From positions 9,454-73,453 of the forward strand of contig CACWIN010000008.1 in NCBI GenBank assembly GCA_902760965.1: a DNA stretch of 64,000 nt. Reading direction: 5' to 3'. Shown piece by piece: positions 5,221-49,451 of this stretch. Position 1 is the first letter of the stretch; each line of letters starts with the position of its first letter. The stretch is from an uncultured Bacteroidales bacterium (GTDB lineage Bacteria > Bacteroidota > Bacteroidia > Bacteroidales > Bacteroidaceae). The translations under genes and the position numbers were made by a program. The notes under the pieces are model-generated. The model was not told where the DNA came from. It saw nothing but the letters and a program-made list of their open reading frames with translations, and made no database searches.

Positions 5221-6420
5221 TCAAATGAGCCCTAAAATTACCTTATAACTATGGACCTCATCGGGATCCCCCAGTTCCTTGCCCGGAGTATCGGACAGTT
5301 TTACGCAGCGGTATACATGCTGGCGGGGGTTAACCTGGAAGGTCTTTAGTTTCATTACAATGTTGAGCGGCTCAACCGTACCCACATCGTTTGTCAGGTT
5401 GGTACCTATGCCGAACGACACCTTTATCCTACCTTCAAAGTACTTCTGGATGGCCAGAGCGCGGTCAAAATCAAGCGCATCGCTGAATACGATTGACTTT
5501 GTCATGGGGTCTATATGGTATGACTCGTATTTGGCAATAATCTTGTCACCAAACTCAAACGGATCACCGCTGTCATGACGTACGCCGTCATACAGCTTTG
5601 CCATATCGAGTGAGAAATTACGCAGGAATACACGTGTGGTAAAGCAGTCCGGCAGCATGGTACCCATGTTTCCGCCGTAAATCTCGGCCCAGTGGCGCAT
5701 CACGTAGTAATTGGCCTCTTTAGGGCCCATGAATGCGGCCGTAGCCATCATAAGCTCATGCGCCATTGTGCCAATAGGTTTAAGGTCCGGACGGATTGAC
5801 TGGTATTTCATTGCAAAATATACAGTCGATGAGCCTATGAAATACTTGGCGTGACGGGTCAGATACTCGGTTACATGATCCTCAACCTCATGTGAATAGC
5901 GGCGGCGCATACCAAAATTGGCAAACTTGAGCTTGTTGTCATTTGATATGGCAATCTTCTTTTCCAGCTGGCTGTCTATGAAATCCCAATCCGGCTCAGT
6001 CTTTTCGTAGGTACGGTAATATACCTCCGATACTGTGCTAAGAATGGGGATTTCATAAAGGGTAACCTTATATATAAGGTCTGTAGCCTCAATATGCAGG
6101 TGTCCCTCCTCATCAAGCGAGATCTTTATGATATCGGGGTTGAACCTGAACCCCATGAGCCACTCAAAATAGCACTGGGGTATAAAATAGATATTATCAT
6201 GGCACCAACGGAACTCCTCCTCCGTCAGGGCAAGCGTGGATAGTTTCCTGAACTCGCTTTTTAGTAGGTCCACAAACTCTTGGGTGAACTTCTGGCCATT
6301 GCGGTCAGTGAAACTAAACGTACCTATTCCCTCGGGGGTTGTACGCTGGTAATAGTATGACATGGAGAACTTGTAAAGGTCGTTCTCAAGCATACTGATT
6401 ACAGTGGTGTCATTATCCAT
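5221..6420 (-). CDS. pncB: nicotinate phosphoribosyltransferase
   Basis: 399 aa. The N-terminal LENDLYKFSM and the internal GTMAHE and SDALD-type blocks are typical of PncB. Confidence 0.85.
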   Translation of the reverse strand: MDNDTTVISMLENDLYKFSMSYYYQRTTPEGIGTFSFTDRNGQKFTQEFVDLLKSEFRKLSTLALTEEEFRWCHDNIYFIPQCYFEWLMGFRFNPDIIKISLDEEGHLHIEATDLIYKVTLYEIPILSTVSEVYYRTYEKTEPDWDFIDSQLEKKIAISNDNKLKFANFGMRRRYSHEVEDHVTEYLTRHAKYFIGSSTVYFAMKYQSIRPDLKPIGTMAHELMMATAAFMGPKEANYYVMRHWAEIYGGNMGTMLPDCFTTRVFLRNFSLDMAKLYDGVRHDSGDPFEFGDKIIAKYESYHIDPMTKSIVFSDALDFDRALAIQKYFEGRIKVSFGIGTNLTNDVGTVEPLNIVMKLKTFQVNPRQHVYRCVKLSDTPGKELGDPDEVHSYKVILGLI

Positions 6421-6427
6421 AATATCC

Positions 6428-7066
6428 TTATTTATAAATCTTTATGTTGTTCTTGTTCATGTAGGTTACCAGCGGATCTACTGTCTCTATGCTGGCTACT
6501 CCCTCCAGATAAACAGAGAGTTCAAAACCTACCTCCTTGCTCAAGCGTACAAGATTCTTTAAGGTCTCAAGAACGCAGTACTCGGCAGCAATACCGCATA
6601 CTACAACATTGTCGCCCTTTACAAACAGGTCCTGGTTGTTGCCCTTTGTATTTTCAAACTGTCCGTACTCCTCCTTGTCCTGAGCCTGGCCTTTGGGCAG
6701 GAAACGTACGTTATCTATATCCAGATTATCCAGAATGCCGTCAGGCAGAGCTGCGCCTACGGTATAGCGTACGCAGTGCTGCGGCCATATTCCGCCGTTA
6801 GCCTTGAATGAGCAGTGGTTCCATGGGTGCCAGTCAAGTGTAAAATATACCTTGTCAAACTTGGTAAGAACACTCTTTACGGGCTCCACAACGCGTGTTC
6901 CATCGGTTGCAGGAAGATTGCCGTCAATGAAATCCTTTTGCAGGTCCACAACGACCATAATGTTTGCGGGTTCACGATTTGTCATAGCACTCTGATTCTT
7001 GTTTCCGCCACAAGCTGCCAACAGGACTGCAGCCATTACAGTGGCAATGATTTTAGTCAGTTTCAT
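6428..7066 (-). CDS. pncA: nicotinamidase / isochorismatase-family hydrolase with lipoprotein signal peptide
   Basis: 212 aa. VVVDLQKDF, TLDWHP and VVCGIAAEYCV are isochorismatase/PncA signatures. The N-terminus MKLTKIIATVMAAVLLAAC is a lipobox signal. The gene is 7 nt upstream of pncB in an operon. Confidence 0.75.
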   Translation of the reverse strand: MKLTKIIATVMAAVLLAACGGNKNQSAMTNREPANIMVVVDLQKDFIDGNLPATDGTRVVEPVKSVLTKFDKVYFTLDWHPWNHCSFKANGGIWPQHCVRYTVGAALPDGILDNLDIDNVRFLPKGQAQDKEEYGQFENTKGNNQDLFVKGDNVVVCGIAAEYCVLETLKNLVRLSKEVGFELSVYLEGVASIETVDPLVTYMNKNNIKIYK

Positions 7067-7165: not shown

Positions 7166-8002
7166 ATGAAAAGAGTTTTATGCATTGTAGCCTTAGCTAC
7201 CGTTACATTGTCTGCTCTTGGCCAAAGCGCAGGAATCAAGAACCGTTATACTGACCCCGAAATTGGTTCTACAGTTTTTATTGAGAAGGGCAACCGGGCC
7301 ATAAACCTGATTGGCGGATACCGCAGTATAAAAGCCGGTGGCGATGCTACGGGCGACGGATACTCCATTCTTTCCCTGCTGAACATAGGCGAAGGAGAAT
7401 ATATAAACTACAGCATATCACCAAGTATTTCATTTTTCATTAAAGACGATCTCTCGGTAGACTTTCGTCTTGAATACAGCGGTTACAAACTTAACGCCGA
7501 TATAAGAGCCGATTTGCGTGAGGTTCTCAATCTGGGAGCAATAGATGACGAGGAAGAGCGCCAGGAGGTAGGCGATCTTCTTAATATCCACCTGTTTGGT
7601 CGCCACATGTCACGCCAATCATGGGGAACAGCAATAGCACTTAGACGGTACATGTCGTTCTTTGGCAGCAAAACCATAGGTGTTTTTGGCGAAGCCCGCA
7701 TGTACGGCGAGTATGGTAAGATTGAATCATACCCATTAAAGGGTGGCGTAGACAACACTAGCAAGCGCCGTGATTCGGATGTGTGGTCAGCGGGACTTAA
7801 GTTGGGTGCCGGTATTTGTGTAAAACTGCGTGACAACAGCGCCATTACATTAAGTATTCCTTTGTTGGGAGCAACCTACAGCTACACATCACAGCACAAG
7901 GTTAAGACCGACAGCAACGCACATCTGTCGCAATTCAACATATCACGTGACATTGACTATCTGGCAATCCAGATTGGCTACTCTCTCTATCTGAAAAAAT
8001 AA
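7166..8002 (+). CDS. outer-membrane beta-barrel protein, function unknown
   Basis: 278 aa with signal peptide MKRVLCIVALATVTLSALGQ. Alternating amphipathic strands run throughout. Confidence 0.5.
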   Translation: MKRVLCIVALATVTLSALGQSAGIKNRYTDPEIGSTVFIEKGNRAINLIGGYRSIKAGGDATGDGYSILSLLNIGEGEYINYSISPSISFFIKDDLSVDFRLEYSGYKLNADIRADLREVLNLGAIDDEEERQEVGDLLNIHLFGRHMSRQSWGTAIALRRYMSFFGSKTIGVFGEARMYGEYGKIESYPLKGGVDNTSKRRDSDVWSAGLKLGAGICVKLRDNSAITLSIPLLGATYSYTSQHKVKTDSNAHLSQFNISRDIDYLAIQIGYSLYLKK

Positions 8003-8013
8003 AACTCACCAAT

Positions 8014-8928
8014 ATGGCTATAACCGGAATTATATTTCTGATCATTGCGACCGTTCTGACCGCAATGTTCTCAATCGTATTCAAGATCTTTCACCGCAAA
8101 GACATTGATGCAAACCAGGCAATATTCTTCAATTACCTGACAGCGTTTGTCCTGGGAGTACTCTTCTCCCTGCATGGTGGAGCTGTTGTAAACCCATTTA
8201 AAGCCGATTGGCTGATTGACGTTATCATCCTTGGGTTCATCTTCATGGCCGGCATGGTAATGCTTTCCGCCTCGACACGTCGTGTTGGTGTTGCAATATC
8301 CACAGTATGCAGCCGTGCATCGATGGTAATCCCGATCATAGTGTCATACATGTTCATCCAAGGCAGTGCCAAGCCCAAGTGGCTGCTCATTTGCCTGGTC
8401 CTGGTCGCAATGACCCTTACCATCTGGACCGATAAACCCGAAGGAGGTCACAAATACACTCTTTTGGATATACTGGCACCCATCACCGTATTTCTTATGT
8501 TCGGCGCCAGCAATGCATACTTAAAGGTTCTGCAGCACCGTGTAACAGTAAAAGATACTGCAGCCGGCCTTTCGGATCAGGTAATCAACAGCGAGATATC
8601 GCTGGTAACCGCATCAGTATTCTTAGTGGCAACACTCATGTGCATATACTCATTCTTCAGGAAAGGAGAGGACGGCAAGCGTTCTCCCCTGCTACTCAAG
8701 AACGTCATTGGAGGCGTTATACTGGGTTTTGTGAACTATTTCTGCACTTTTACCCTGATGCTTTCCATGAAGTATATTGATTCATCAATACTGTTCCCCA
8801 TTCACAACATCGGTATAGTTGCGATAGGTGCACTTGTAGGAGTATTTGCATTCAAGGAAAAAATGAGACCGCATCAAGTAATAGGTATGGTACTCGCTGC
8901 GGTCTCTATTGCCCTGCTTTGTCTGTAA
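8014..8928 (+). CDS. 10-TM inner-membrane protein, DMT/EamA-like transporter
   Basis: 304 aa, almost entirely hydrophobic segments in two roughly 150-aa halves. It starts 12 nt after the OMP gene. Confidence 0.5.
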   Translation: MAITGIIFLIIATVLTAMFSIVFKIFHRKDIDANQAIFFNYLTAFVLGVLFSLHGGAVVNPFKADWLIDVIILGFIFMAGMVMLSASTRRVGVAISTVCSRASMVIPIIVSYMFIQGSAKPKWLLICLVLVAMTLTIWTDKPEGGHKYTLLDILAPITVFLMFGASNAYLKVLQHRVTVKDTAAGLSDQVINSEISLVTASVFLVATLMCIYSFFRKGEDGKRSPLLLKNVIGGVILGFVNYFCTFTLMLSMKYIDSSILFPIHNIGIVAIGALVGVFAFKEKMRPHQVIGMVLAAVSIALLCL

Positions 8929-8935: not shown

Positions 8936-11900
8936 TTATTCAAAAATCAGTTTAACGCCAAACTGCAGATACCAGCAGTTGGAGGTTGATTTTTTAGGTT
9001 CAAAGGCTTCGGTTATGAGGCCTTTGCTGTTTGTTGCCAGGTTGTACAAGGGGTTTCCGTTAGCGTTCTTTCCCACATATGTAAGGATCCTGCCGTCATT
9101 GCAGGCCGAAGGAGTCTGTGTTACACCCCACTTGTCATTCAAAAGGTTACCTATATTCATAACGTCAATTGACAGCTGCAAGGTTTCCTTGTTCTTTGAT
9201 GATTTGATCAGGCGTGCCAGATTAAAGTTCTGTGCTACATGCAGGTCAATACGGTTCACCCAAGGCATTTTGGCCTCGTTGGCACGGGCATACTGTCCCA
9301 GATGGGAGTTAAGATATGAATCCGAATTTACAAAATTGCGGAATGCCTCTCTCTGTTCCTTGGCAGTGTACAGCACGGTACCGTTTTTATCCTCAATATC
9401 GGCAAATTCTATATCCCAGATATTCGAAGGTATATATATCAGGTCATTTGTCACACCGTCGCCGTTCATGTCATTTGAGAACAGGTAGCTGTAATTGCCT
9501 GCCGACTGGCCCGAATAGAACAGACCAACCTCGGTGCTCATAAACTTATTTGACGCATAATCAATATGATAGGTGGCCGATGCCGTAACCTTATCGGGAA
9601 CCACATATGCCGAAGGTCTTAGAACAACCTCATTGGGAGTATTCACGTTTGGCAGATTAGCCCAGGTTGATTTAAGATCGGAACCGGTCATATCCGATAC
9701 CGACATTGAGGCCATGTGGATATATGAAACCTGAGTTTTAAGGTTGCGCAAAGGTTCGGCAGTCAGTGTAGCTGCTGCAGACCAGCTGTATCCCTTATCG
9801 GTATTGCTGATTACCATTGCACCACCCGACTTTGAAACCAATGGACTTACCACTTCCACGTCGTTATAATCGGCACGGTTGTCAAGCCCCTTAAAGGTGC
9901 TTACATTATCTATGTTGGTCTGGTTGTAGTTTTCTACGTAAACAGCATTGATATCCTTGTTGAATATACCCTCAACTGTAAGTGATGCAGGGAAACTCAA
10001 GCCCAGGTCCATATCGGCTGCAATTGAAAATTTGGCAACCTGAGGCAGTTTGAAATCGGGGTCTATACCTGTAATCGAAGCGCCCTTTAGAGTAGGATTT
10101 GGATTGGCGGTCATATTTACGCCCTGCGATGAAAGGTAATCCCTGAGTCCCTGCTCAGTGTAAATAAAGTTGTTCTGGAATCCGTCAAGTACGGCGCTGG
10201 AACCGTTGAACATTGCGGTATTCTGAAGCATACCGCTGCTGTTGGGCACGGTTGCAAAGAACACCAGCGGAATACGGCCTGTAAACAGACCTGCACCACC
10301 ACGGATCACATAACTGCCGTCACCGCTCATATCAAGGTTGAATCCTATTCTGGGTGACCACTGAATATTTGATTTTGGCCATATTCCGTTGTCAATTACG
10401 GGCGATGTATATCCATCGGGAGCAGGCACTGTCTCAAAGTGTTCCGTCCAGTCAATTGCCTTATAAGACTGATTGGTCTCCAGTTTTTCATAATACTGCA
10501 TAAGATCAGCTCTGATACCGTATGTAAGTGTGAATCTGTCCGTTATCCTAGTCTCAGACTGCACAAAAAGCGCTGTCTGTCCAAACGATGTCCTTGATGC
10601 CGGGTCATCAACTCCGTCATAAGCATAAGTCATGCCGAATGCCTCCGGAGTAGCCTGATTGATGAAATCATCGAGCGATGAATAACGGTAATAGCCGGTA
10701 CCGTACATCTTGTAGTTTGTAGCACCCTTCTGATACTGGTAGCTCATTCCAGCAGTAATTGTGCTGTGAGCCAGTGTCCAGCTGATATGGTCCATTACGC
10801 TGTATGTGCGCACATAGTTTCCTGTACCGTTCGTGAACAGTTCATAACCGGCGCTCATAAATGCATCACCGTCCTTACGGATATCAATGTGCGGGAACCA
10901 CGACGACTCCGAACCGCGCAGATTGCTTACGTCCGATACCGTAACAAGCAGTTTGTTGCTCAAGCGGCCGCTCAGACGGCTGTTCAGCTCGGCCACTCCT
11001 GACCATGCATTGTCATTGATGGTGTAGCAGTTGTTGCGGAAAGCATATCCGTTCTGTGAAATACGTTCCGATGCAGCTTTGGCGCCAACTGTACTCCTTG
11101 CATTTGGAGTGCTCCACTGCTTGTTGCCGGTCCAGTTATAACGCAGCATAAGATTGTGATTGGGAGATATGTTCCAGTCTATGCGTGCCAGCACCTTGGT
11201 GTTTGTCTGGTCGCCGTTTGTAAGGTCATAACCGCCGGCATCATAGCCGTAGGCCTTAAGCGCATCGCTAAAACGGTCCATGTCATCGGCCGTAACACGG
11301 CTTATCATTGCACCGGCATCGCCTACTCCGTCGGTTGAAAGTTTCCATTCGGTTATCACACCCGGAGTATTCTTGTATTCGGCATTTACAAAATAGAACA
11401 ACTTGTCTTTGAGTATGGGACCGCCAAGTGTCAGACCGTATGTAGTGTTGCTCTCTTTTGTCCTCTCGCCAAGGTCAGTTCCGTATACTGAGTTTCCACG
11501 GAGTTTCTCGTTTGTAAAATAGGTGTAAGCCGTGGCCTTGAATGTGTTGGTTCCTGATTTTGTAATGACGTTTATGCCGCCACCTGTAAAATTACTTTGA
11601 CGTACGTCATACGGAGCTATCGCCACCTGCATCTCCTCGACTGCATCAATTGAGATGGGTGTGCCTGCACCAGGAAGGTCGGAGCTCAAGCCAAAGCTGT
11701 TGTTCATTACGGCACCGTCAATGGTAAGAGCCGTGGTACGTCCGTCGCGTCCGGCCATGGTGTTGTTTGCTCCGTTGTATGGAGAGAGTCTGGTATAATC
11801 CAATAGGCTGCGGTTTACTGACGGCAGCATTGCTACATTCTCTTTTCCAATATTATAAGTCTGACCTGTACGTGTCTCTGTAAAATGGATGCTTCCGCCT

Positions 11901-12265
11901 CGGATAGTTACTTCGGGAATGTTGCTGGTATTCTCATCCAGCACCACATTTATATTATAATCCTTGCCAATAGACAGCATCACATTATCATACCCCTTGC
12001 TTGTGTAACCCACAAAGCTAACCATCACATTGTAATTACCAGGTTTTAGTCCTGATACTGAAAATACGCCGAATCTGTTTGTCACTGCACCGTAAAACGC
12101 TCCGTTGTCAGTGTTTTTTACCTGCACGGTTGCAGCCTCGACAGGATAGCCGTTGGAATCCTTGACCGATCCGCTTATGCTGGCTGTAGTATTCTGTGCC
12201 CATGCGCCTGCTGTAAACATCAGCAAGACAAACTGCATGAACAGAACCTTGAAGAGTCTGCCCAT
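8936..12265 (-). CDS. TonB-dependent receptor (carboxypeptidase-regulatory-like domain + plug + barrel), FMN-riboswitch controlled
   Basis: The ORF runs to 12382. The signal peptide MGRLFKVLFMQFVLLMFTAGAWAQ begins at the internal Met at 12265. A SGSVKDSNGYPVEAATVQV CarbopepD_reg-like domain follows, then plug and barrel blocks. The upstream 117 nt would be leader or expression platform. Confidence 0.8.
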   Translation of the reverse strand: MGRLFKVLFMQFVLLMFTAGAWAQNTTASISGSVKDSNGYPVEAATVQVKNTDNGAFYGAVTNRFGVFSVSGLKPGNYNVMVSFVGYTSKGYDNVMLSIGKDYNINVVLDENTSNIPEVTIRGGSIHFTETRTGQTYNIGKENVAMLPSVNRSLLDYTRLSPYNGANNTMAGRDGRTTALTIDGAVMNNSFGLSSDLPGAGTPISIDAVEEMQVAIAPYDVRQSNFTGGGINVITKSGTNTFKATAYTYFTNEKLRGNSVYGTDLGERTKESNTTYGLTLGGPILKDKLFYFVNAEYKNTPGVITEWKLSTDGVGDAGAMISRVTADDMDRFSDALKAYGYDAGGYDLTNGDQTNTKVLARIDWNISPNHNLMLRYNWTGNKQWSTPNARSTVGAKAASERISQNGYAFRNNCYTINDNAWSGVAELNSRLSGRLSNKLLVTVSDVSNLRGSESSWFPHIDIRKDGDAFMSAGYELFTNGTGNYVRTYSVMDHISWTLAHSTITAGMSYQYQKGATNYKMYGTGYYRYSSLDDFINQATPEAFGMTYAYDGVDDPASRTSFGQTALFVQSETRITDRFTLTYGIRADLMQYYEKLETNQSYKAIDWTEHFETVPAPDGYTSPVIDNGIWPKSNIQWSPRIGFNLDMSGDGSYVIRGGAGLFTGRIPLVFFATVPNSSGMLQNTAMFNGSSAVLDGFQNNFIYTEQGLRDYLSSQGVNMTANPNPTLKGASITGIDPDFKLPQVAKFSIAADMDLGLSFPASLTVEGIFNKDINAVYVENYNQTNIDNVSTFKGLDNRADYNDVEVVSPLVSKSGGAMVISNTDKGYSWSAAATLTAEPLRNLKTQVSYIHMASMSVSDMTGSDLKSTWANLPNVNTPNEVVLRPSAYVVPDKVTASATYHIDYASNKFMSTEVGLFYSGQSAGNYSYLFSNDMNGDGVTNDLIYIPSNIWDIEFADIEDKNGTVLYTAKEQREAFRNFVNSDSYLNSHLGQYARANEAKMPWVNRIDLHVAQNFNLARLIKSSKNKETLQLSIDVMNIGNLLNDKWGVTQTPSACNDGRILTYVGKNANGNPLYNLATNSKGLITEAFEPKKSTSNCWYLQFGVKLIFE

Positions 12266-12388
12266 TGACACACTGCCGGCGTTAGCCGAAATACCAAACT
12301 CACATGATTTCTCATTCATGCCCTTGGCATAAATGAGTTTTGCAGGCGCGATTACGCCTGACAGAACTGTTTTGATTTTCATAAATTT

Positions 12389-12491
12389 CTTCTCCCATCC
12401 AGACTATACTGTCGGTACCGTAGTTGCAACGGTTCGGCCTTTCGGCTCGCGGACTTTACCGCCGGTCGGGGAATTTCGCCCCACCCTGAAG
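12389..12491 (-). promoter_or_regulatory. FMN riboswitch (RFN element)
   Basis: The minus strand reads CUUCAGGGUGGGGCGAAAUUCCCCGACCGGCGGUAAAGUCCGCGAGCCGAAAGGCCGAACCGUUGCAACUACGGUACCGACAGUAUAGUCUGGAUGGGAGAAG. This matches the conserved RFN core (GGGUG.AAAUUCCC.ACCGGCGGUA..AGUCCGCGAGC...CCGACAGU.UAGUCUGGAUGGGAGAAG). The P1 helix is closed by CUUC/GAAG. Confidence 0.9.
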
Positions 12492-12581
12492 TTTTACGTC
12501 TGCAAATTTCCGCATTCTACGCGACTCTGCAAAGTATTTTCTGCTAAAAAAGATAAATGTTTTAGCCAGTTTCCTTTCTGT

Positions 12582-12614
12582 AAAAGAAAACCGCTCCTCA
12601 ATAACGAGAAGCGG
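12582..12614 (-). terminator. intrinsic terminator of def
   Basis: The minus strand reads CCGCTTCTC-GTTATT-GAGGAGCGG followed by TTTTCTTTT. It lies 24 nt past the def stop. Confidence 0.8.
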
Positions 12615-12637
12615 CTTATATATGTTCATTTGGTTAT

Positions 12638-13300
12638 TTACCACCAATCGGGACGAGTGTAGTCGAATTGTTTTAGTTCCTCCATCCAGGCTTGGTTTAC
12701 GAATACGGAATCGGCCTTATCTATATAGAGAATACCATCAAGATGGTCGCACTCATGCTGAAAAATGATTGCGGTATAGCCATTTACATGCTCTTTTTTG
12801 GTCTCGCCCGATTCCAGATCAGCGTATGAGATGATCACATCGGTCTTACGTGGTACAAATCCGGAGTAACCGGGCACAGACAGACAACCCTCACGTCCAT
12901 GAGTGGTTTCACCGTACAGGCTGTCCACACGGATGTTTACATAACACTCAAACGGTTCATCCTCCTTATCAAGGCGCTGCACCCAGATAATGCGCCTGTT
13001 TATACCCACCTGAGGAGCAGCAATCCCCACTCCATCCTGCGAAGGATCAGTAACGGTACGCAACATCTTAGCCATAAGAGTCTTAAGCTCTTCTGACTGC
13101 AACTGTCCTGCCTCAACATCAATACTAGGAGTACGCAACTGCACACTATCCTCAGGCAGAGTAGTCACGAACATCACAGAATCAGACAATGATATGATCA
13201 TCCTTTCTCTATCAGTCCATCCGCTCCCTGCACATGCCCCTAATACCATGCCGGCTCCCAAAACAAACGTCAATCTCAATCCGTACCTGCAATGTCTCAT
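12638..13300 (-). CDS. def: peptide deformylase
   Basis: All three PDF motifs are present: GIAAPQVG, EGCLSVPG and HECDHLDG. The longest ORF (220 aa) begins with a lipoprotein-like MRHCRYGLRLTFVLGAGMVLGAC. Internal Mets at 13201 or 13174 would give a canonical protein of about 185 aa. Confidence 0.85.
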   Translation of the reverse strand: MRHCRYGLRLTFVLGAGMVLGACAGSGWTDRERMIISLSDSVMFVTTLPEDSVQLRTPSIDVEAGQLQSEELKTLMAKMLRTVTDPSQDGVGIAAPQVGINRRIIWVQRLDKEDEPFECYVNIRVDSLYGETTHGREGCLSVPGYSGFVPRKTDVIISYADLESGETKKEHVNGYTAIIFQHECDHLDGILYIDKADSVFVNQAWMEELKQFDYTRPDWW

Positions 13301-25874: not shown

Positions 25875-26027
25875 ACGTATAGTCAAAACTGGGTATTTTG
25901 AGCTTTTACGGCTTATATTGAGTCATTTTATTACAGTTATATTACCTACTATATTATTTTTATTTTTATTTTTGCGCGGATATATGTGTGGATCCCTGTC
26001 CACCCAACCGGAATAATAAAGGACAAA

Positions 26028-28970
26028 ATGAAAACTTTTGGAACAATGAAATATATCAGAATTGCTGTTCTAACCCTTATTCTTACTGTTTTGAACGGTT
26101 ACTCGTTTGCGCAGAATTCCCGTAATCAGAGAAATGCAAACCAAGGTAAAGAGTACTCCATTAGCGGCCGTATCATTGACGGCTCAAACGGAGGTCCCCT
26201 GGAACTTGTAAACATCACCTTTGAGAACAACTCATTCTGGGCAGTAAGTGACCTTGAAGGCAAGTTCAGCCTTAAACTCAGAAACGGAGAATACCATTAC
26301 GAGGTTTCATACATTGGTTATGAAACAGTTAAGGGCATCCTTAAAGTTGAAGGAAAAGACATCACCAACTTTAACATCAAGATGGCCGCCTCAAGCCTTG
26401 CGCTACAGGAAGTAACTGTAACAGCCAAGCAACAGGCCATGGGCTCTTCGTCAGTAATTGACCAGACTGCATTGCAGCATCTTCAGCCCAAGAGTGTTGA
26501 GGATATCTTACAGTTGATGCCAGGAAACCTGACTAAGAATCCTGATGTCAATTACATTGGCCAGACATACATCAGAGAAGTATCAGGAAGTAACAACAAT
26601 GCCATGGGAGCACTTGTCATGGTAGATGGCGCCCCCATATCAAATGATGCCATAATGCAGTCAATGTCAACGTCAAAATATCAAATTAACGATGACCCCA
26701 AATCATCTTCACAGAATACCACTGGCGCTGGAGTAGATTTGAGAACAATTTCTACCGATAACATTGAGAACATGGAGGTTATCCGTGGCATACCTTCAGT
26801 AGAATATGGAAACCTGACCTCAGGTGCCGTTCTTATTAAGACCAAGAAAGGTGCCACTCCTCTTGAAGTTAAAGGAAAAGTGGATCCCAACTCAAAAATG
26901 TTATATGCCGGAAAGGGATTTACTTTAAACACAGGTGGAACCGTAAATCTTGCATTGGATTATACCGAGTCATACAATGACGTCAGGTTTCAAGCAAAAG
27001 GTTTTGAGCGTATTACCGGTGATTTCGGTTATGGCAGGACCTTTTTTAAGCAATATCCCTTAAGTGTCAATCTCAAGGTCTCATATTTCCAGAATGTATA
27101 TGATGTCCGCGTGGATAAGCAGCAGCATAATTTTGAGGTAAACAAAAGTGAGAATCGCGGCGTCAGGGTTAATCTTAACGGAGACTGGAATGTCAAGCGG
27201 AAACTGTTGTCCAATTTAAGTTACAATTTTTCATACAACAACAGTGTACAGCGCGATTATAATTATGAGGAAGTGTTGCTTACCACGGGTGTAACACCTG
27301 TTGCAGTATCAACGGTTCCCGGAGAGTTCCGCTCATATATGCTTAACGGAACATACAACACCGAGTATACCATGAGTGGAAATCCGGTTGATATTTTTGC
27401 TCAACTCAAAGGAACCAAGACTGTATTTATCAATGAAGGCTTCACAACATCTTTCAAAGAAGGCATTGAATACAAATATGATGTCAATCATGGTAAAGGG
27501 CTTGAGTTTGACCCCAAGACTCCTCCTTTTGTAAGAAATGTCCAGACTGTGCGTCCTCGCCCATATACAGACATTCCCGCCATGCAGACTGCATCTGCAT
27601 TTATTGAGAACAAGACTATAATGCCTATCGGCAAAACAAGTTTAACTGCCCAGATCGGAATAAGAGCCAACAGACTGTTCATTGACAGGAAATATCTGGA
27701 TCGTAGCGACATGAATACCTTTGAGCCACGTTTTAATCTGGAATGGTCTTTCCTTAACTCAAAAAACTCAGCATTTGACAATGTCAGTTTCAGTGCCGGT
27801 TGGGGCATGACATCAAAAATGCCTCCATTGGTTTACCTGTATCCTGACAAAGTCTATTTTGATGAAAAATCATTTGCCTATGTAGCCCCCTCAATGATTA
27901 TGGATGAGAGTATCGCTATTATGACGACCGATGTCATAGAAAGCACCGCTAATCCGGATATCAAGCCTTCAACGGGCAGAAAAATGGAACTTGGACTCAA
28001 TTTTGAAATAAAGAAGATGTCTGGCAACGTAACATTCTTTATGGAGAATTATGAGAATGAGTTTACATATCGTTCAACCCCTTATACATTCTCATACAGA
28101 ACATATGAAGCACCTGTCGGCGCTACGAACTACAGATATGAGAACGGTACGCTAAAATGCGATTATGACAATGCCACCATTGATGTTCCCAGCAGGAATG
28201 ATTCTACTTTTCAATCTTACAGCATACCCACAAACGGTAATTCCACTCAAAAGATGGGTATTGAGTACAGTTTGAATTTAGGACAGATAAAAGCACTCAG
28301 GACATCAATAGTAATTGATGGTGCATGGTTGTGGGTAAAAAGAAGGAACGAACTTGGTGCATGGTCCATAATATCAGTTACAGACCCTGTTAATGACAGT
28401 CGTACTACACCTAAAAAAAATTATCCGTTCCAGGCATATTATCCTGCAGGTTCAGGATCAGTTGAGTCACGTGTCAACACTAACGTAAGGTTTATCACCC
28501 ATATTCCCAAACTGTCTCTGATATTCTCAACAACGGCACAAATCGTATGGAGTGAGACCAGCCAGAATATTTATCAGGATTCTGACGGAAATGACATTTG
28601 GTATATGGCTCCCAACCAGCAATCTTCTACAGGAGAACTGAGACCTCATTATGATCCCGTAGGATTCCGCGATTTTGCAGGCAATTATTATGAGTGGAAC
28701 ACAAACTACAGGAGTCTGACCAATTACAGACGTGAATTTGAGATGGTTCAGTCACAGACCTATCCTACATATTATGATAAAGAGTCTTATCCGACATCTG
28801 TGATTATCAATTTCCGTCTTACAAAACAGTTCTCTGACATATTTGAGATATCATTTATGGCAAACAATCTGTTTAACACCCAGCAACTCTACCGCTCGCC
28901 AATTAACGGTGGCTATACCAACCTGGCCATTCCGCAATATTTTGGAGCGGAGTTGAAGATAAAGATTTGA
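26028..28970 (+). CDS. TonB-dependent receptor (CarbopepD_reg + plug + barrel), first gene of the peptidase-rich locus
   Basis: The ORF opens at 25986, but the signal peptide (MKTFGTMKYIRIAVLTLILTVLNGYSFAQ) starts at 26028. A SGRIIDGSNGGPLELVNITF regulatory-like domain is followed by the plug (NMEVIRGIPSVEYGNLTSGAVLIKTKKG). No SusC/RagA-type partner SusD is present. Confidence 0.8.
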   Translation: MKTFGTMKYIRIAVLTLILTVLNGYSFAQNSRNQRNANQGKEYSISGRIIDGSNGGPLELVNITFENNSFWAVSDLEGKFSLKLRNGEYHYEVSYIGYETVKGILKVEGKDITNFNIKMAASSLALQEVTVTAKQQAMGSSSVIDQTALQHLQPKSVEDILQLMPGNLTKNPDVNYIGQTYIREVSGSNNNAMGALVMVDGAPISNDAIMQSMSTSKYQINDDPKSSSQNTTGAGVDLRTISTDNIENMEVIRGIPSVEYGNLTSGAVLIKTKKGATPLEVKGKVDPNSKMLYAGKGFTLNTGGTVNLALDYTESYNDVRFQAKGFERITGDFGYGRTFFKQYPLSVNLKVSYFQNVYDVRVDKQQHNFEVNKSENRGVRVNLNGDWNVKRKLLSNLSYNFSYNNSVQRDYNYEEVLLTTGVTPVAVSTVPGEFRSYMLNGTYNTEYTMSGNPVDIFAQLKGTKTVFINEGFTTSFKEGIEYKYDVNHGKGLEFDPKTPPFVRNVQTVRPRPYTDIPAMQTASAFIENKTIMPIGKTSLTAQIGIRANRLFIDRKYLDRSDMNTFEPRFNLEWSFLNSKNSAFDNVSFSAGWGMTSKMPPLVYLYPDKVYFDEKSFAYVAPSMIMDESIAIMTTDVIESTANPDIKPSTGRKMELGLNFEIKKMSGNVTFFMENYENEFTYRSTPYTFSYRTYEAPVGATNYRYENGTLKCDYDNATIDVPSRNDSTFQSYSIPTNGNSTQKMGIEYSLNLGQIKALRTSIVIDGAWLWVKRRNELGAWSIISVTDPVNDSRTTPKKNYPFQAYYPAGSGSVESRVNTNVRFITHIPKLSLIFSTTAQIVWSETSQNIYQDSDGNDIWYMAPNQQSSTGELRPHYDPVGFRDFAGNYYEWNTNYRSLTNYRREFEMVQSQTYPTYYDKESYPTSVIINFRLTKQFSDIFEISFMANNLFNTQQLYRSPINGGYTNLAIPQYFGAELKIKI

Positions 28971-29011
28971 TGTTCAATTTTTTTATTAACTTATCAACTA
29001 ATTAAAAAAAG

Positions 29012-30211
29012 ATGAAGAAGTTTTTATTTGTAGCCCTGGTTGCTGTATTTGCAGCATTCACGGCATGTAATGATGATGACAAGGAGGCACAGAAGTACCA
29101 GGTGACAGTAAAAATCACTTGTGACGAGGCTGAACTTTCATCAATGAGTTCAATTAAAGCCACTGCCGTTAGCGAATCAGGCTCAGTAACAACTGTTGAT
29201 GCACAGAATGGCGTTGCAATCCTGAAACTTGTAGCCGGCTCATACACAATTTCTGTTGTAGGAGATGCTGGCGCTTACAACTATGTAGGCTCCACCAGAT
29301 GCGTTGTTGCAGAGGCCGATGTTCCTAACCTGAAAGTATCTCTTATCAAATCAAAGCCTACTGGTAAGATTATCTTCAAAGAGGTATATTCAACAGGTGT
29401 AAAGAGTTTCTATTGGACTGACGGTTTCTATGAACTGTTTAACAACAGTGATGAGGTACAGTATCTTGACGGTATCATTATGGGTATTGTTCAGTGCGGT
29501 TACGGTGATGTCAGCAGTTGGGCTGATGATGAGGGCAATCTTCCTGACTACTATCCTATGGGTAACCATACCGTATTTTTCCCTGGTAGTGGAAACGAAT
29601 ATCCCGTTCAGCCCGGACAGAGCGTAGTTGTTGCAACCCGTGCCATAAACCATTCTGCACGTGAACTTGGAGAGAACGATTCTGTTTCTCCAGTGGATTT
29701 GAGTGCTGCAGATTGGGAAATATTCATCCCGACATCTGCTCAGGATACCGATAACCCGGATGTTCCTAACCTTGAGGTTGCTTATTCACAGTTCGGATTT
29801 GACTTTATGCCTGCTGTAAGCGGACAGGCTCTCATTCTTGCCAAACTTCCTGCTGATTCAACCATGGAAAGTTTTGTTGCAAATAATGCTCTGAAGCCCG
29901 AAGGTCAATACCGTGCAGCACTTTGCATTCCTTCAGAGTATGTAATTGACGCTGTTGACATTGTTTACTTCAATGAGGATCTTAAGAAGAGTAAGACAAT
30001 TCTTGATTTGGATGATTCAGGCTATACATACTATAGCGGTTCAGATGACGAGTGGACTGATCCTATGTATTGCGGTAAGAGCCTTCGCAGAAAGTGCGTA
30101 GGAGTCAGCAACGGCCGTGCATATTTCAAGGATACAAACAATTCATCTGATGACTTTATCCTTGGCGGACAGAAACCTGTTGTACGCAGAACATTTACAT
30201 CAGCTGATTAA
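29012..30211 (+). CDS. surface lipoprotein, DUF4876-like (Ig-like N-domain + lamin-tail-like domain)
   Basis: 399 aa with lipobox AAFTAC. The block IIFKEVYSTG...YELFNNSDEVQYLDG resembles the LTD-like core of DUF4876 proteins, which usually follow TonB receptors. This is recalled from memory and not verified. Confidence 0.45.
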   Translation: MKKFLFVALVAVFAAFTACNDDDKEAQKYQVTVKITCDEAELSSMSSIKATAVSESGSVTTVDAQNGVAILKLVAGSYTISVVGDAGAYNYVGSTRCVVAEADVPNLKVSLIKSKPTGKIIFKEVYSTGVKSFYWTDGFYELFNNSDEVQYLDGIIMGIVQCGYGDVSSWADDEGNLPDYYPMGNHTVFFPGSGNEYPVQPGQSVVVATRAINHSARELGENDSVSPVDLSAADWEIFIPTSAQDTDNPDVPNLEVAYSQFGFDFMPAVSGQALILAKLPADSTMESFVANNALKPEGQYRAALCIPSEYVIDAVDIVYFNEDLKKSKTILDLDDSGYTYYSGSDDEWTDPMYCGKSLRRKCVGVSNGRAYFKDTNNSSDDFILGGQKPVVRRTFTSAD

Positions 30212-30224
30212 TTGACTTATTATG

Positions 30225-30263
30225 CCGCAGAGCAGGAGTCTGCTCCTGCCCTGCGGTTTTATT
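30225..30263 (+). terminator. strong hairpin + T-tract inside the locus (terminator/attenuator)
   Basis: CCGCAG-A-GCAGGAG-TCTG-CTCCTGC-C-CTGCGG followed by TTTTATT, 14 nt after the stop of the DUF4876-like gene. Confidence 0.7.
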
Positions 30264-30299
30264 ACTTTTTTATTAAGGATATATTATTTGTATTAAGAT

Positions 30300-31904
30300 A
30301 TGAAAAAGCTTTCTACCGGATTATCACTGTTTGTAGTTGCATTAACTATGGCTACATTAACTCAAAAAGTTTCTGCCCAGGCAGAACGGAAGGTTGATCC
30401 TTGGTATCAGGATGGGCTTTTCATACATAATATCACATACGGTTCCATTAATCCCGCCAACATTGTCAACATCCCCTATTCCGGGCTTAATGACATTGTT
30501 GTATCATATTCAGGACAAAATGGAAAATACAGAGCATTTGACGATGGCGTGAAAACACGTTTGTTTGATGCCAATGTATTTGGTATCAGGAAATTTGAGA
30601 AACTCTCATTCAAGGGTAATATCAACTACTCCAATCACTATTCTGAGGACATGAGGTGGAATGCCACCGTTTTGACGTCAGAATTGAATCCGTTCCTTTT
30701 GGCTGACACTCTCAGGTATGATACCCTGACAAATGATGCAAGAACAGAATCATTTGTCATTGACGGTTCAGTTGCATATGACTTGAGCAACCGTCTGACA
30801 GTCGGAGTTTCAGCAAAATACACCGTTGCACATAAAGCCGACCAATCAGATCCCCGCATGAAGGCAAATGCAGCCAGAACAGCAATCATGCCCGGTATCA
30901 ATTGGAATGTGAACGGTACAATCACACTCGGCTTAGCCGGAATCGTTGAAATTTATCATGAAAATGATAAATCATCGGTTGAGGATAACATGATAGGCGA
31001 ACATAATAAGGTATATATATATAAAGGCCTTGGAGGCTATGAGGGCAAAGACGGTCTTGGCTATAACCGCAGGTATGACGGTCTGAAATTCGGAGGGTCT
31101 CTTAATTTTAATTTCTCTACCAACGGTTCATTTAAAAACTTTACTGAGTTCAAATTCGTTTCCAATTCTGAGAATGCTACAGACGGCGGAGATTCTTACA
31201 GTTACAAAGGCGGAGATTTCTCACAAACCACAATGGCTCTTAACAGCCGATTCGTGCTGGCCAGACCAAAAATTCAGCATAATCTTATAATTGAAGCCAG
31301 CATGGATAATTGTAAGGGGGAATGGTCCGTTCAAAAACAAGAGAGAGACGAATGGAAAATGATCAGGTATAATGTCACTTCAACTGAAACGATACATAAG
31401 GAGAATGACATGACTGCCGCACTGACATATAATGCAACATTCTTAAAGTCAGGCACGCCACACTTGTCTGTTTCAGCAACCGCAGCGTATAAGCAGGTTA
31501 GCGTAAAGCAGTTTCCTGATGAGAATCATGCAAAATATACCAAACTGAATGCCGGACTGGTCATCAATAAGAAATGGACTGCAAATAAGATGCGTTTCCT
31601 TACTGAAGTAAGTGGTGGAATGAATCATGCCCTTAAGCCTCTTGATATTTCAGTTTTAACAAATGAAGCGCCTTTAGAAAGATTTTATAAGGGATACTAT
31701 CTCCCCAAATACACATATCTTTCAGCCGAAGACTATTACGCATCCATACAGTTGGGAGCATCATATCCGCTTGCTCTTTTTTCAAGCAACGGATGGCTTA
31801 ATCTGACAGTTGATGCCTCTATCAGAAAGTATTCAGATAAAAGCCCAATTTTTAAGGATACTGACAAAAAGAATATAGGCCTGAAATTGAATTATACATT
31901 TTAA
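30300..31904 (+). CDS. outer-membrane beta-barrel protein (DUF6850-like)
   Basis: 534 aa with signal peptide ...TQKVSAQ and alternating strands. The C-terminus LKLNYTF ends in Phe, as in an OMP beta-signal. Confidence 0.55.
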   Translation: MKKLSTGLSLFVVALTMATLTQKVSAQAERKVDPWYQDGLFIHNITYGSINPANIVNIPYSGLNDIVVSYSGQNGKYRAFDDGVKTRLFDANVFGIRKFEKLSFKGNINYSNHYSEDMRWNATVLTSELNPFLLADTLRYDTLTNDARTESFVIDGSVAYDLSNRLTVGVSAKYTVAHKADQSDPRMKANAARTAIMPGINWNVNGTITLGLAGIVEIYHENDKSSVEDNMIGEHNKVYIYKGLGGYEGKDGLGYNRRYDGLKFGGSLNFNFSTNGSFKNFTEFKFVSNSENATDGGDSYSYKGGDFSQTTMALNSRFVLARPKIQHNLIIEASMDNCKGEWSVQKQERDEWKMIRYNVTSTETIHKENDMTAALTYNATFLKSGTPHLSVSATAAYKQVSVKQFPDENHAKYTKLNAGLVINKKWTANKMRFLTEVSGGMNHALKPLDISVLTNEAPLERFYKGYYLPKYTYLSAEDYYASIQLGASYPLALFSSNGWLNLTVDASIRKYSDKSPIFKDTDKKNIGLKLNYTF

Positions 31905-31907
31905 AAC

Positions 31908-34067: not shown

Positions 34068-34084
34068 CAAAAACAATACGGAAA

Positions 34085-38268: not shown

Positions 38269-38272
38269 CAAT

Positions 38273-49416: not shown

Positions 49417-49451
49417 AAAAAATTAGGGCCGCGTTAAGCGACCCTTTTTTT
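49417..49451. terminator. bidirectional terminator (A-tract, hairpin, T-tract) just 3' of tRNA-Ser
   Basis: AAAAAA-TT-AGGGCCGCG-TTAA-GCGACCCT-TTTTTT. Confidence 0.65.

What the first reader, a model, noticed from the sequence alone, without database searches (positions are those of the whole stretch)
12383..12540. FMN riboswitch directly upstream of a TonB-dependent receptor: candidate outer-membrane riboflavin importer
The minus-strand leader carries an essentially complete RFN aptamer, with its P1 3' strand (GGGAGAAG) ending 6 nt before the first in-frame ATG at 12382. The receptor signal peptide only starts at 12265, so the intervening 117 nt may be the expression platform. That stretch contains the hairpin CAGGCGT-AATC-GCGCCTG. 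FMN riboswitches classically control rib biosynthesis genes and inner-membrane transporters (RibU, PnuX, ImpX, RfnT and others). A TonB-dependent receptor as the regulated gene predicts active outer-membrane scavenging of riboflavin or another flavin. To my knowledge no such receptor has been characterised experimentally.
Basis: partly seen in the sequence, partly recalled or inferred. Interest (0 to 1): 0.65.

Follow-up and report, generated by a model that had tools for sequence, protein, structure and literature searches.

The report
FMN riboswitch controlling an outer-membrane transporter

Summary
Window 12497-12383 (minus strand) is a full-length FMN riboswitch aptamer: Rfam RF00050, 98.1 bits against a threshold of 66.2.

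- **Setting.** It lies between a Bacteroides-type promoter and a 1148-codon ORF. The ORF's predicted fold is a plug-and-barrel TonB-dependent transporter (TBDT) with no SusD partner.
- **Conservation.** At least 31 distinct orthologous loci from ruminant and horse-gut Bacteroidaceae MAGs keep the aptamer in the same place. At least ten syntenic orthologues lack it.
The 117 nt after the aptamer are not an untranslated platform.
  - The ATG at 12382 is the only start conserved in all orthologues, and its frame is always open.
  - The ATG at 12265 is not conserved.
  - The core P1 3' strand ends 6 nt before ATG 12382, so FMN most likely blocks translation initiation directly.
- **Hairpins.** The 39 extra codons carry three hairpins. 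Two show strong compensatory covariation, so this stretch is both coding and structured RNA. What the hairpins do is unknown.
- **Substrate.** Flavin import is inferred only from the known content of FMN regulons.
- **Literature.** The papers I could search report no FMN-regulated TBDT, and one survey found no FMN regulons in Bacteroidaceae.

I rate it a new variant of a known kind and moderately interesting.

The parts
12588..12617 (-). Intrinsic terminator of the upstream peptide deformylase gene. It marks the 5' boundary of the transcription unit.
   Evidence: The terminator scan finds a 13-bp stem followed by a T-run. The def ORF is 12638-13300.
12503..12533 (-). Bacteroides-type promoter: -33 TTTG (12533-12530), a 19-nt spacer, then the -7 box GAAATTTG (12510-12503). 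The expected transcription start is about 12496 +/- 3.
   Evidence: Read from the sequence. The same motif is conserved in orthologous leaders. The consensus TTTG / TAnnTTTG is from my own knowledge of Bacteroides promoters. Metatranscriptome contigs cover 12153-12478 and none lie on 12479-12650.
12383..12497 (-). FMN riboswitch aptamer (RFN element) with helices P1-P6. The core P1 is 5' CUUC (12491-12488) paired with 3' GAAG (12392-12389).
   Evidence: RF00050 at 98.1 bits, full length. Fourteen orthologous leaders score 93-115 bits.
12380..12392 (-). Translation initiation region: the P1 3' strand GAAG, the A/U-rich linker AAAUUU and the start codon ATG (12382-12380). The segment UUUAUG can also pair with 5' CGUAAA (12498-12493) as an extension of P1.
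   Evidence: for the sequence. Duplex predictions on 30 leaders give P1 pairing that reaches the AUG in 22 of them. The ATG is conserved in all 32 sequences (31 distinct).
12343..12360 (-). Hairpin HP1 (7 bp, 4-nt loop), starting at +23 from the A of the start codon, inside codons 8-14.
   Evidence: 99.5% of cells are paired and 4 of 7 pairs change on both sides across 26 sequences. RNAfold predicts it in every sequence that has the extension.
12311..12337 (-). Hairpin HP2 (12 bp, loop AAG), inside codons 16-24.
   Evidence: 96.8% of cells are paired and 9 of 12 pairs have compensatory changes, for example CUCAUU/AAUGAG against CUUGUU/AACAAG.
12276..12289 (-). Hairpin HP3 (5 bp, loop UAAC), inside codons 32-36. 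Support is weaker than for HP1 and HP2.
   Evidence: 92% of cells are paired and 2 of 5 pairs are compensatory.
12197..12382 (-). A 62-codon extended signal peptide. It consists of a 39-codon N-terminal extension that holds HP1-HP3, then a classical n/h/c region ending AWA|Q.
   Evidence: Translation, N-terminal alignments and an open frame in all orthologues. The cleavage site before Gln is inferred from the Bacteroidetes 'Q-rule' (my own knowledge).
8936..12382 (-). TonB-dependent transporter gene (1148 codons). It has an N-terminal CarboxypepD_reg domain, a putative TonB box (EVTIRG), a plug and a large beta-barrel. It is monocistronic, because the next gene is convergent.
   Evidence: Pfam PF13620 and PF25183. 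AlphaFold model at pLDDT 83.9. Foldseek top hits are FusA, YddB, PirA, FepA, BtuB and PqqU, all at probability 1.0. ORF map.

Best explanation
This is a canonical FMN riboswitch that switches off translation of a monocistronic TonB-dependent outer-membrane transporter when cellular FMN is high.

**Proposed mechanism.**
1. Transcription starts at a Bacteroides-type promoter a few nucleotides upstream of the aptamer.
2. The core P1 3' strand (GAAG) ends 6 nt before the conserved start codon ATG 12382. In most orthologues an extension of P1 pairs with the nucleotides just before the AUG, and often with the AUG itself.
3. Bacteroidetes initiate translation on unstructured, A-rich mRNA rather than on a Shine-Dalgarno sequence. 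FMN-stabilised P1 therefore removes the upstream half of the ribosome landing site. Without FMN the purine-rich 3' strand is free and initiation proceeds.

**The hairpins.** The first 39 codons encode a dispensable extension of the signal peptide. Their real constraint is RNA structure: hairpins HP1 and HP2, and probably HP3. A stable hairpin begins 20-24 nt after the AUG in every riboswitch-bearing orthologue. I infer that these hairpins wall off the downstream side of the landing site and insulate aptamer folding. They may also protect the untranslated mRNA from Rho or RNases.

**The transporter.** By analogy with BtuB (B12 riboswitch) and OMthi (TPP riboswitch), it most likely imports riboflavin or another flavin across the outer membrane.

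**Shown here.** The aptamer, the promoter motif, the conserved start codon and open frame, hairpin covariation, the TBDT fold, and conservation of the pairing.

**Inferred only.** FMN binding, translational repression, the role of the hairpins, and the substrate.
For: **Aptamer.**
- 98.1 bits, full length. Fourteen orthologues score 93-115 bits.
- All consensus junction nucleotides are kept in the Rfam alignment. The conserved G residues that variant, non-FMN aptamers change to A (PMC6298564) are not changed here.

**Translational control.**
- No terminator-like site follows the aptamer.
- ATG 12382 is conserved in all 32 riboswitch-bearing sequences (31 distinct), and its frame is uniquely open.
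- Predicted P1 pairing reaches the AUG in 22 of 30 leaders.
- In B. thetaiotaomicron, TPP riboswitches directly adjacent to the start codons of OMthi and pnuT act on translation only (bioRxiv 10.1101/867226).

**Hairpins.**
- HP1 is 99.5% paired and HP2 is 96.8% paired. Together, 13 of their 19 pairs show double-sided changes. None of 500 shuffles reaches the observed values.
- A hairpin sits at +20 to +24 even in L022 and L205, which lack the long extension. It is mostly absent from riboswitch-less orthologues.

**Transporter and conservation.**
- TBDT fold.
- The pairing is kept in two loci with a different gene neighbourhood.
- FMN regulons are known to contain only riboflavin biosynthesis and transport genes (PMC3766115; PMC4418817).
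- Rumen metatranscriptome contigs join the aptamer to the early ORF.
Against: - No experiment supports ligand binding, regulation or transport.
- At least ten syntenic orthologues (52-57% identical) lack the riboswitch and sit 7-100 nt behind aspS. Either the substrate is useful regardless of flavin status, or regulation was lost in those lineages.
- No riboflavin biosynthesis gene and no recognised inner-membrane riboflavin transporter was found in the 64-kb window. I could not examine the rest of the genome.
- A 62-residue signal peptide is unusual.
- Codon 38 (GTG at 12271) is ATG, TTG or GTG in most close orthologues and never CTG. This leaves room for a second, internal start.
- Thermodynamic folding of whole leaders does not by itself show a clean two-state switch.
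- The exact transcription start is unknown, so the 5' partner of the P1 extension may not be fully transcribed.
Confidence: 0.6

Rival explanations
1. Translation starts near the signal peptide (ATG 12265 or GTG 12271). The 111-117 nt after the aptamer are an untranslated expression platform whose hairpins switch between alternative folds.
For: - The three hairpins are real and covary.
- Codon 38 is an NTG start-type codon in most close orthologues and is never the synonymous CTG.
- In some sequences a long-range pairing of the AUG region with +118 to +130 is predicted.
Against: - ATG 12265 is unique to the window lineage.
- The NTG at codon 38 is missing in L026 and L202, and has no counterpart in L016, L017, L018, L207, L022 or L205.
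- The frame from ATG 12382 has no stop in any of the 31 distinct sequences, while the other frames carry up to 4 stops. All indels are multiples of 3.
- The long-range helix is only 78% paired, and many cells do not pair.
- L022 and L205 run from the aptamer-adjacent ATG straight into a signal peptide.
Confidence: 0.1
2. The riboswitch is genuine, but the transporter's substrate is not a flavin. It could be a peptide, protein, metal complex or another cofactor. FMN control would then reflect an indirect link, or be a lineage-specific add-on to a housekeeping transporter.
For: - Syntenic orthologues without the riboswitch are common.
- The best structural matches are FusA and YddB, which are large TBDTs.
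- The gene sits in a conserved housekeeping block, aspS-TBDT-EamA-pncA-pncB-NIF3.
- No flavin gene lies nearby.
Against: - Surveys of FMN regulons found essentially only riboflavin biosynthesis and uptake genes (PMC3766115; PMC4418817).
- The aptamer-TBDT unit is kept together in two different neighbourhoods.
- The aptamer has remained at 93-115 bits across orthologues whose proteins are only 53-60% identical.
- TBDTs under B12 and TPP riboswitches do carry the cognate vitamin (PMC6977713).
Confidence: 0.2
3. Control acts mainly on the transcript rather than on initiation alone. FMN binding would trigger Rho-dependent termination or RNase cleavage in the early ORF, with HP1-HP3 acting as pause, rut-masking or processing elements. 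This can coexist with translational control.
For: - The E. coli ribB FMN riboswitch is reported to act on both transcription and translation (cited in PMC6041382; PMC5756330).
- Metatranscriptome contig depth is higher over the aptamer (27) than over 12167-12370 (13) or further downstream (about 3).
- The conserved hairpins have no other assigned role.
Against: - There is no intrinsic terminator.
- Contig depth is a poor measure of expression, as the output itself states.
- In B. thetaiotaomicron, start-codon-adjacent TPP riboswitches left mRNA levels unchanged.
- G+C-rich hairpins are the opposite of a Rho loading site.
Confidence: 0.2
4. The aptamer is a specificity variant that senses something other than FMN, such as riboflavin, lumichrome or another flavin breakdown product. 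The clostridial FMN variants that control transporters behave this way.
For: Variant FMN aptamers typically sit in front of transporter genes (PMC6298564).
Against: - The variants replace the conserved phosphate- and ribityl-contacting G residues with A, and they fall away from the consensus.
- Here every conserved junction position of the Rfam consensus is matched, and scores are 93-115 bits.
Confidence: 0.05

Closest known systems
btuB under the AdoCbl (B12) riboswitch (E. coli; B12-riboswitch-controlled BtuB loci in Bacteroides)
   Same: [quoted passage not shown] The TBDT fold is shared: BtuB chains 1nqg and 2gsk are among the Foldseek hits.
   Different: The aptamer class and ligand differ. 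This transporter is about 1086 residues when mature, has an N-terminal CarboxypepD_reg domain and belongs to the PF25183 barrel type. It shares only about 11% identity with BtuB in the structural alignment. No BtuG- or BtuF-like partner genes lie next to it.
OMthi (with pnuT) under TPP riboswitches in Bacteroides thetaiotaomicron (PMC5613172; PMC6977713; bioRxiv 10.1101/867226)
   Same: The host is a Bacteroidales bacterium. A small B vitamin is taken up by a dedicated TBDT. The riboswitch lies directly against the start codon, and the reported control is purely translational. This is the closest mechanistic precedent.
   Different: The ligand is TPP rather than FMN. In some species OMthi is linked to an inner-membrane PnuT under the same control, whereas here no co-regulated inner-membrane transporter is evident. 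As far as I could find, covarying hairpins inside the ORF have not been described for OMthi.
FMN-riboswitch-controlled inner-membrane riboflavin transporters (RibU/YpaA, RibM/PnuX, ImpX, RibN, RibXY, RibZ)
   Same: The same aptamer family and the same logic: low FMN turns uptake on. Several of these genes are also monocistronic (PMC4418817).
   Different: All of them are cytoplasmic-membrane proteins. None is an outer-membrane TBDT. The published lists of FMN-regulated non-biosynthetic genes contain no TBDT.
E. coli ribB FMN riboswitch
   Same: An FMN aptamer in a Gram-negative bacterium that controls access to the translation start.
   Different: The ribB switch uses a Shine-Dalgarno sequestor helix and is also reported to affect transcription. 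Here there is no Shine-Dalgarno-dependent initiation, P1 itself abuts the AUG, and conserved structure continues into the ORF.
PqqU (YncD), the TBDT for the cofactor PQQ
   Same: A TBDT dedicated to a small redox cofactor. It is a structural neighbour (9c4o and 6v81).
   Different: It is not riboswitch-controlled, it is a much smaller barrel protein, and sequence similarity is only about 11%.

Membership tests
FMN riboswitch (Rfam RF00050, RFN element) | Six-helix junction architecture (P1-P6) with conserved junction sequences, scored by the covariance model above the gathering threshold | tested here: met
   98.1 bits against 66.2, model positions 1-138 of 138, E 1.8e-21. Orthologues score 93-115 bits.
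FMN riboswitch (Rfam RF00050, RFN element) | Conserved ligand-pocket nucleotides are kept. The G residues contacting ribityl and phosphate are not mutated to A as in the specificity variants. | tested here: met
   Every upper-case junction position of the consensus is matched in the alignment: AGGG, ACCGGCGGU, CCGCGAGC, CCGAC and GGAUGGGAGA. The criterion comes from PMC6298564. I did not attempt residue-by-residue mapping onto 3F2Q.
FMN riboswitch (Rfam RF00050, RFN element) | Binds FMN and changes gene expression in response | not testable with these tools
   Needs in-line probing or ITC, and reporter assays.
FMN riboswitch (Rfam RF00050, RFN element) | Located in the 5' leader of the regulated gene, on the same strand, downstream of a promoter | tested here: met
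   The order is def terminator, promoter motif, aptamer, then ATG 6 nt after the core P1 3' strand. RNA contigs span the aptamer and the ORF.
TonB-dependent transporter | N-terminal plug inside a 22-strand beta-barrel | tested here: met
   The AlphaFold model has pLDDT 83.9 and pTM 0.78. The 50 listed Foldseek PDB hits are all TBDTs at probability 1.0, with TM-scores normalised to the target of 0.45-0.74. Pfam PF25183 scores 160 bits. The Pfam Plug model itself did not hit, and I did not count the strands.
TonB-dependent transporter | TonB box upstream of the plug | tested here: inconclusive
   A candidate motif, IPEVTIRG, follows the CarboxypepD_reg domain. Homologues keep an (E/D)V.I/V pattern at this position. 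This is judged by eye only, and the region has low pLDDT.
TonB-dependent transporter | Energy coupling to TonB-ExbBD and active import of a defined substrate | not testable with these tools
   Needs genetics and uptake assays.
SusC/RagA-type TBDT (SusCD pair) | A SusD-family lipoprotein gene immediately downstream in the same operon | tested here: not met
   The next gene is a convergent EamA transporter, both in the window and in most of the orthologous loci whose downstream gene was seen. No SusD gene was seen.
Oar-like / PF25183 TBDTs with an N-terminal CarboxypepD_reg domain | CarboxypepD_reg domain followed by an OMP_b-brl_4 barrel | tested here: met
   PF13620 at 70 bits and PF25183 at 160 bits. 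All 120 listed homologues carry PF25183, and all but one also carry PF13620 (CarboxypepD_reg).
Riboflavin uptake system | Transports riboflavin, FMN or FAD, or rescues a riboflavin auxotroph | not testable with these tools
   This is inferred only from the FMN riboswitch. No homology to RibU, PnuX, ImpX, RibN or RfnT is expected for an outer-membrane protein.

The most novel reading that the evidence does not exclude
The locus would combine two firsts.
1. It would be the first outer-membrane TonB-dependent importer dedicated to riboflavin or flavins. That would extend the B12 and B1 'riboswitch plus TBDT' pattern to vitamin B2, in a lineage previously reported to lack FMN regulons.
2. It would be a riboswitch whose functional RNA continues into the ORF. 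Covarying hairpins written into a cleavable, otherwise dispensable extension of the signal peptide would form part of the expression platform. They could define the ribosome landing site in a bacterium that does not use Shine-Dalgarno sequences, or shield the repressed mRNA.
Probability: 0.35. Interest if true: 0.78.

Novelty: new variant of a known kind. Interest (0 to 1): 0.62.

Why it matters
- **Flavin uptake across the outer membrane.** Riboflavin transporters have been catalogued only for the cytoplasmic membrane. How Gram-negative bacteria that lack general porins, such as Bacteroidales, move flavins across the outer membrane is unknown. A riboswitch-marked TBDT gives a directly testable candidate.
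- **Vitamin cross-feeding.** It would add vitamin B2 to the vitamins (B12, B1) for which gut Bacteroidales compete using high-affinity outer-membrane machinery. This bears on cross-feeding in the rumen and gut.
- **Riboswitch distribution.** FMN riboswitches do occur in a Bacteroidaceae lineage, with a pattern suggesting one gain and repeated loss at a single orthologous locus. That makes a natural comparison set for asking when flavin-responsive control pays off.
- **Riboswitch mechanism.** The covarying hairpins inside the first 39 codons are a clean case of sequence constrained as both RNA and protein. They may show how riboswitches gate translation where there is no Shine-Dalgarno sequence.

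Tried and rejected
1. **Metagenome scan with the aptamer P6/J6-1 pattern.** I hoped to harvest more TBDT leaders. The pattern is common to many FMN riboswitches. Of 120 loci, only L099 has this transporter downstream; the rest precede ORFs of about 80-460 aa. The scan is useful only as a rough sign that the TBDT association is rare.
2. **A long-range helix pairing the AUG region with +118 to +130.** RNAfold predicts it in many sequences, but only 78% of cells pair and it has little covariation. I do not adopt it.
3. **Alternative start codons.** ATG 12265 is not conserved. The NTG at codon 38 is suggestive, but it is absent from L026, L202 and the shorter lineages.
4. **A transcription-terminator platform.** No hairpin with a U-tract follows the aptamer.
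5. **A second known RNA family in the 117 nt.** Nothing credible appeared at relaxed E-values.
6. **Whole-leader thermodynamic folding to show a two-state switch.** Inconclusive.
7. **Sequence search of the PDB with the transporter.** No hits. The fold had to be established by prediction plus Foldseek.
8. **Literature searches for an FMN-controlled TBDT.** The co-occurrences found were unrelated, for example a cobalamin riboswitch before a TBDT in Gluconobacter and tonB1 in Vibrio cholerae.
9. **Riboflavin biosynthesis or known riboflavin transporter genes in the window.** None was found among the ORFs scanned.
Full report
**1.

- An Rfam scan of the whole window gives two hits above threshold. 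One is RF00050 (FMN riboswitch) at 12497-12383 on the minus strand: 98.1 bits against a gathering score of 66.2, E 1.8e-21, all 138 model positions, not truncated.
  - GGGAGAAG is at 12396-12389.
  - Six bases follow, then ATG at 12382-12380.
  - An in-frame ATG is at 12265.
  - The hairpin CAGGCGT-AATC-GCGCCTG is at 12360-12343.
- Every conserved junction nucleotide of the family consensus is matched in the alignment. The rare specificity variants that reject FMN replace the conserved phosphate- and ribityl-contacting G residues with A (PMC6298564). That is not the case here.

**2. The transcription unit**

- Upstream, the peptide deformylase gene (12638-13300) ends with an intrinsic terminator at 12617-12588.
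- Next comes TTTG (12533-12530), 19 nt, then GAAATTTG (12510-12503). This fits the Bacteroides -33/-7 promoter type (consensus from my own knowledge) and is conserved in orthologous leaders.
- That places the transcription start at about 12496, the 5' edge of the aptamer.
- No terminator-like site follows the aptamer.
- Contigs from two rumen metatranscriptomes, more than 99% identical to the window, run continuously from 12478 to 12153 or 12213. Nothing lies on 12479-12650. This is consistent with the layout but not decisive.
- The downstream gene (12382-8936) is followed by a convergent gene, so it is monocistronic.

**3. The regulated gene**

- The 1148-codon product has Pfam CarboxypepD_reg and OMP_b-brl_4 domains. 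It has no sequence-level match in the PDB.
- An AlphaFold model built on 68 homologues has pLDDT 83.9.
- Foldseek places it among solved TonB-dependent transporters at probability 1.0. Hits include FusA, YddB, PirA, FepA, Cir, FecA, BtuB, PqqU and SusC.
- No SusD gene follows, so it is not a SusCD pair.
- A candidate TonB box (EVTIRG) lies after the N-terminal domain. I judged this by eye.

**4. Conservation and distribution**

- One scan of species-representative genomes returned 80 relatives.
- The close ones come from MAGs labelled with ruminant (cattle, buffalo, yak, sheep, reindeer) or horse sources. Their records name them Bacteroidaceae or Bacteroidales, and one names Prevotellaceae.
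- The aptamer lies directly upstream of the orthologue in 23 of these loci (nhmmer), and in further metagenomic loci fetched through the protein.
- Fourteen representatives, including the most divergent (53-60% protein identity), give full-length RF00050 hits of 93-115 bits.
- The neighbourhood aspS-[riboswitch]-TBDT-EamA-pncA-pncB-NIF3 is syntenic across the clade.
- Ten syntenic orthologues (L019, L020, L023, L024, L027, L028, L030-L033) have no FMN element. In these the transporter starts 7-100 nt after aspS.
- On a neighbour-joining tree, riboswitch-bearing and riboswitch-less genes interleave within one clade (L203 is a regex false negative there). This fits one gain and at least two losses.
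- In L204 and L205 the aptamer-transporter unit sits in other neighbourhoods. The two parts therefore travel together.

**5. Where translation starts**

- In an alignment of the leaders, the ATG right after the aptamer is present in all 32 sequences (31 distinct). The gap from the GAAG core of P1 is 2-6 nt.
- ATG 12265 exists only in the window's own lineage.
- The frame opened by ATG 12382 has no stop codon in any of the 31 distinct sequences. One of the other two frames has 1-4 stops in every sequence and the other has 0-3.
- The indels in this stretch are multiples of three.
- Two proteins that gene callers had started late (P0012, P0013) turn out to have the same open extension.
- In L022 and L205 the aptamer-adjacent ATG leads straight into a normal signal peptide. 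In L017, L018 and L207 the extension is about 25 codons long.
- Codon 38 (GTG at 12271) is ATG, TTG or GTG in most close relatives and never CTG. That is intriguing, but it fails in L026 and L202 and has no equivalent in the shorter lineages. I keep an internal second start only as a minor possibility.
- The product therefore most likely begins at 12382, with a 62-residue signal peptide cleaved at AWA|Q.

**6. How the switch probably works**

- The core P1 is CUUC/GAAG, and its 3' strand ends 6 nt before the AUG.
- In seven leaders (L001, L003, L005, L008, L009, L029, L040) the 5' side reads (A)AUUUUUC. In L003, L005 and L029 it pairs continuously with GAAGAAUUU up to position -1 (my reading of the sequences).
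- In the window and its relatives, CGUAAA (12498-12493) can pair with UUUAUG, the start codon included. In L017, L022 and L026, different 5' sequences (AUA, CAUA) do the same.
- Predicted P1 pairing reaches the AUG in 22 of 30 leaders.
- Whether the outermost 5' bases are transcribed depends on the unmapped transcription start.
- Bacteroidetes initiate translation on unstructured, A-rich mRNA (my own knowledge). FMN-stabilised P1 would therefore remove the upstream half of the ribosome binding region.
- This is the same layout as the TPP riboswitches in front of OMthi and pnuT in B. thetaiotaomicron. Those lie directly against the start codon and change translation without changing mRNA level (bioRxiv 10.1101/867226).

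**7. Structured RNA inside the ORF**

- The 39-codon extension looked conserved as protein, but the pattern is that of RNA.
- On a 26-sequence alignment I counted pairs for three hairpins and one long-range helix.

| Element | Window coordinates | Cells paired | Pairs changed on both sides |
|---|---|---|---|
| HP1 | 12360-12343 | 99.5% | 4 of 7 |
| HP2 | 12337-12311 | 96.8% | 9 of 12 |
| HP3 | 12289-12276 | 92% | 2 of 5 |
| Long-range helix (AUG region with +118 to +130) | 12388-12377 with 12260-12248 | 78% | 4 of 12 |

- An example in HP2 is CUCAUU/AAUGAG against CUUGUU/AACAAG, which changes the peptide from KLIY..MNE to KLVC..MNK.
- None of 500 shuffles reaches the observed values, and sliding the partners drops pairing to 30-44%.
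- The long-range helix is not supported.
- Every riboswitch-bearing sequence has a stable hairpin starting 20-24 nt after the AUG. This includes L022 and L205, which lack the long extension. Riboswitch-less orthologues mostly do not.
- No known RNA family matches this stretch.
- I infer that the hairpins belong to the regulatory design. They may delimit the downstream edge of the ribosome landing site, keep the ORF from interfering with aptamer folding, or shield the repressed mRNA from Rho or RNases. None of this is shown.

**8. Function of the transporter**

- The only evidence is guilt by association. It is reasonably strong, because surveys of FMN regulons found riboflavin biosynthesis and uptake genes almost exclusively (PMC3766115; PMC4418817).
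- B12 and TPP riboswitches in front of TBDTs do mark transporters of the cognate vitamin (PMC6977713).
- Three things count against over-confidence.
  - Some orthologues have no riboswitch.
  - No flavin genes were found in the 64-kb window.
  - I could not inspect the rest of the genome.
- The convergent neighbour is an EamA/DMT permease (8014-8928), conserved next to the transporter in most loci. From memory, RibN-type riboflavin permeases belong to that superfamily. I did not test this, and the adjacency may simply reflect synteny.

**9. Novelty**

- Sun et al. 2013 state that FMN regulons were found in all groups examined except Bacteroidaceae, Mycobacteriaceae and Cyanobacteria.
- Full-text searches combining FMN riboswitch or riboflavin with TonB found nothing relevant. 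The library does not cover subscription journals, so absence is not proof.
- Among 120 metagenomic FMN aptamers picked by a shared core motif, only one preceded this transporter.
- I class the finding as a new variant of a known kind. Both the aptamer and the idea of a riboswitch-controlled vitamin TBDT are known. The combination is new, and so are the covarying hairpins embedded in an extended signal-peptide coding region.

**10. Verdict**

- The riboswitch call is secure.
- The regulated gene is a TBDT.
- Translational control at ATG 12382 is likely, and flavin import is plausible.
- The role of the in-ORF hairpins is open.
- Overall confidence in the combined explanation is about 0.6, and interest is 0.62.

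Noticed in passing
window 8014-8928 (+) and 7166-8002 (+): An EamA/DMT-family permease (304 aa), preceded by a 278-aa protein with no Pfam hit, lies convergent to the transporter. The EamA gene is kept next to the transporter in most orthologous loci, on the same strand in L019, L020 and L022. It could be the inner-membrane partner, or merely a syntenic neighbour.
   Followed up: partly
window 12271-12269 (codon 38 of the transporter ORF): This codon is ATG, TTG or GTG in nearly all close orthologues and never the synonymous CTG. That pattern is typical of a start codon. It sits 4 nt after hairpin HP3, so a second, riboswitch-independent initiation site is possible.
   Followed up: partly
L019, L020, L023, L024, L027, L028, L030-L033 (orthologous loci): In the riboswitch-less orthologues the transporter gene starts only 7-100 nt after aspS, with no promoter-like spacer in several of them. 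This suggests co-transcription with the aspartyl-tRNA synthetase gene after the switch was lost.
   Followed up: partly
window 5221-7066 (-): A nicotinamidase-like isochorismatase (pncA-like) and a nicotinate phosphoribosyltransferase (pncB) sit side by side. This is a niacin-salvage pair, and it lies in the same conserved block as the transporter and the EamA gene.
   Followed up: no
window 25986-42057 (+): A second TonB-dependent transporter (994 aa, with Plug and TonB_dep_Rec hits) is followed by DUF4876 and DUF6850 proteins and then a run of five large ORFs. Three of the four I scanned have HEAT-repeat hits, one has no Pfam hit, and I did not scan the fifth (36073-38268). This is an uncharacterised outer-membrane uptake cluster.
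   Followed up: no
window 49452-49537 (-): A tRNA-Ser (anticodon TGA) gene. The mechanical ORF 49450-50871 (+, DUF389 domain) overlaps it at its annotated start, so the real start of that gene is probably further downstream.
   Followed up: no
window 12437-12470; loose ends in metatranscriptome runs X25 and X30: Rumen metatranscriptome contigs from other organisms share the conserved aptamer core but continue into different flanks. FMN riboswitch leaders from several taxa are therefore expressed in the same samples.
   Followed up: no
L081-L200 (metagenomic FMN aptamers): Almost all of the 120 aptamers that share the P6/J6-1 core motif precede ORFs of about 80-460 aa, presumably rib genes or small permeases. 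Many come from human-gut assemblies. I did not classify them.
   Followed up: no
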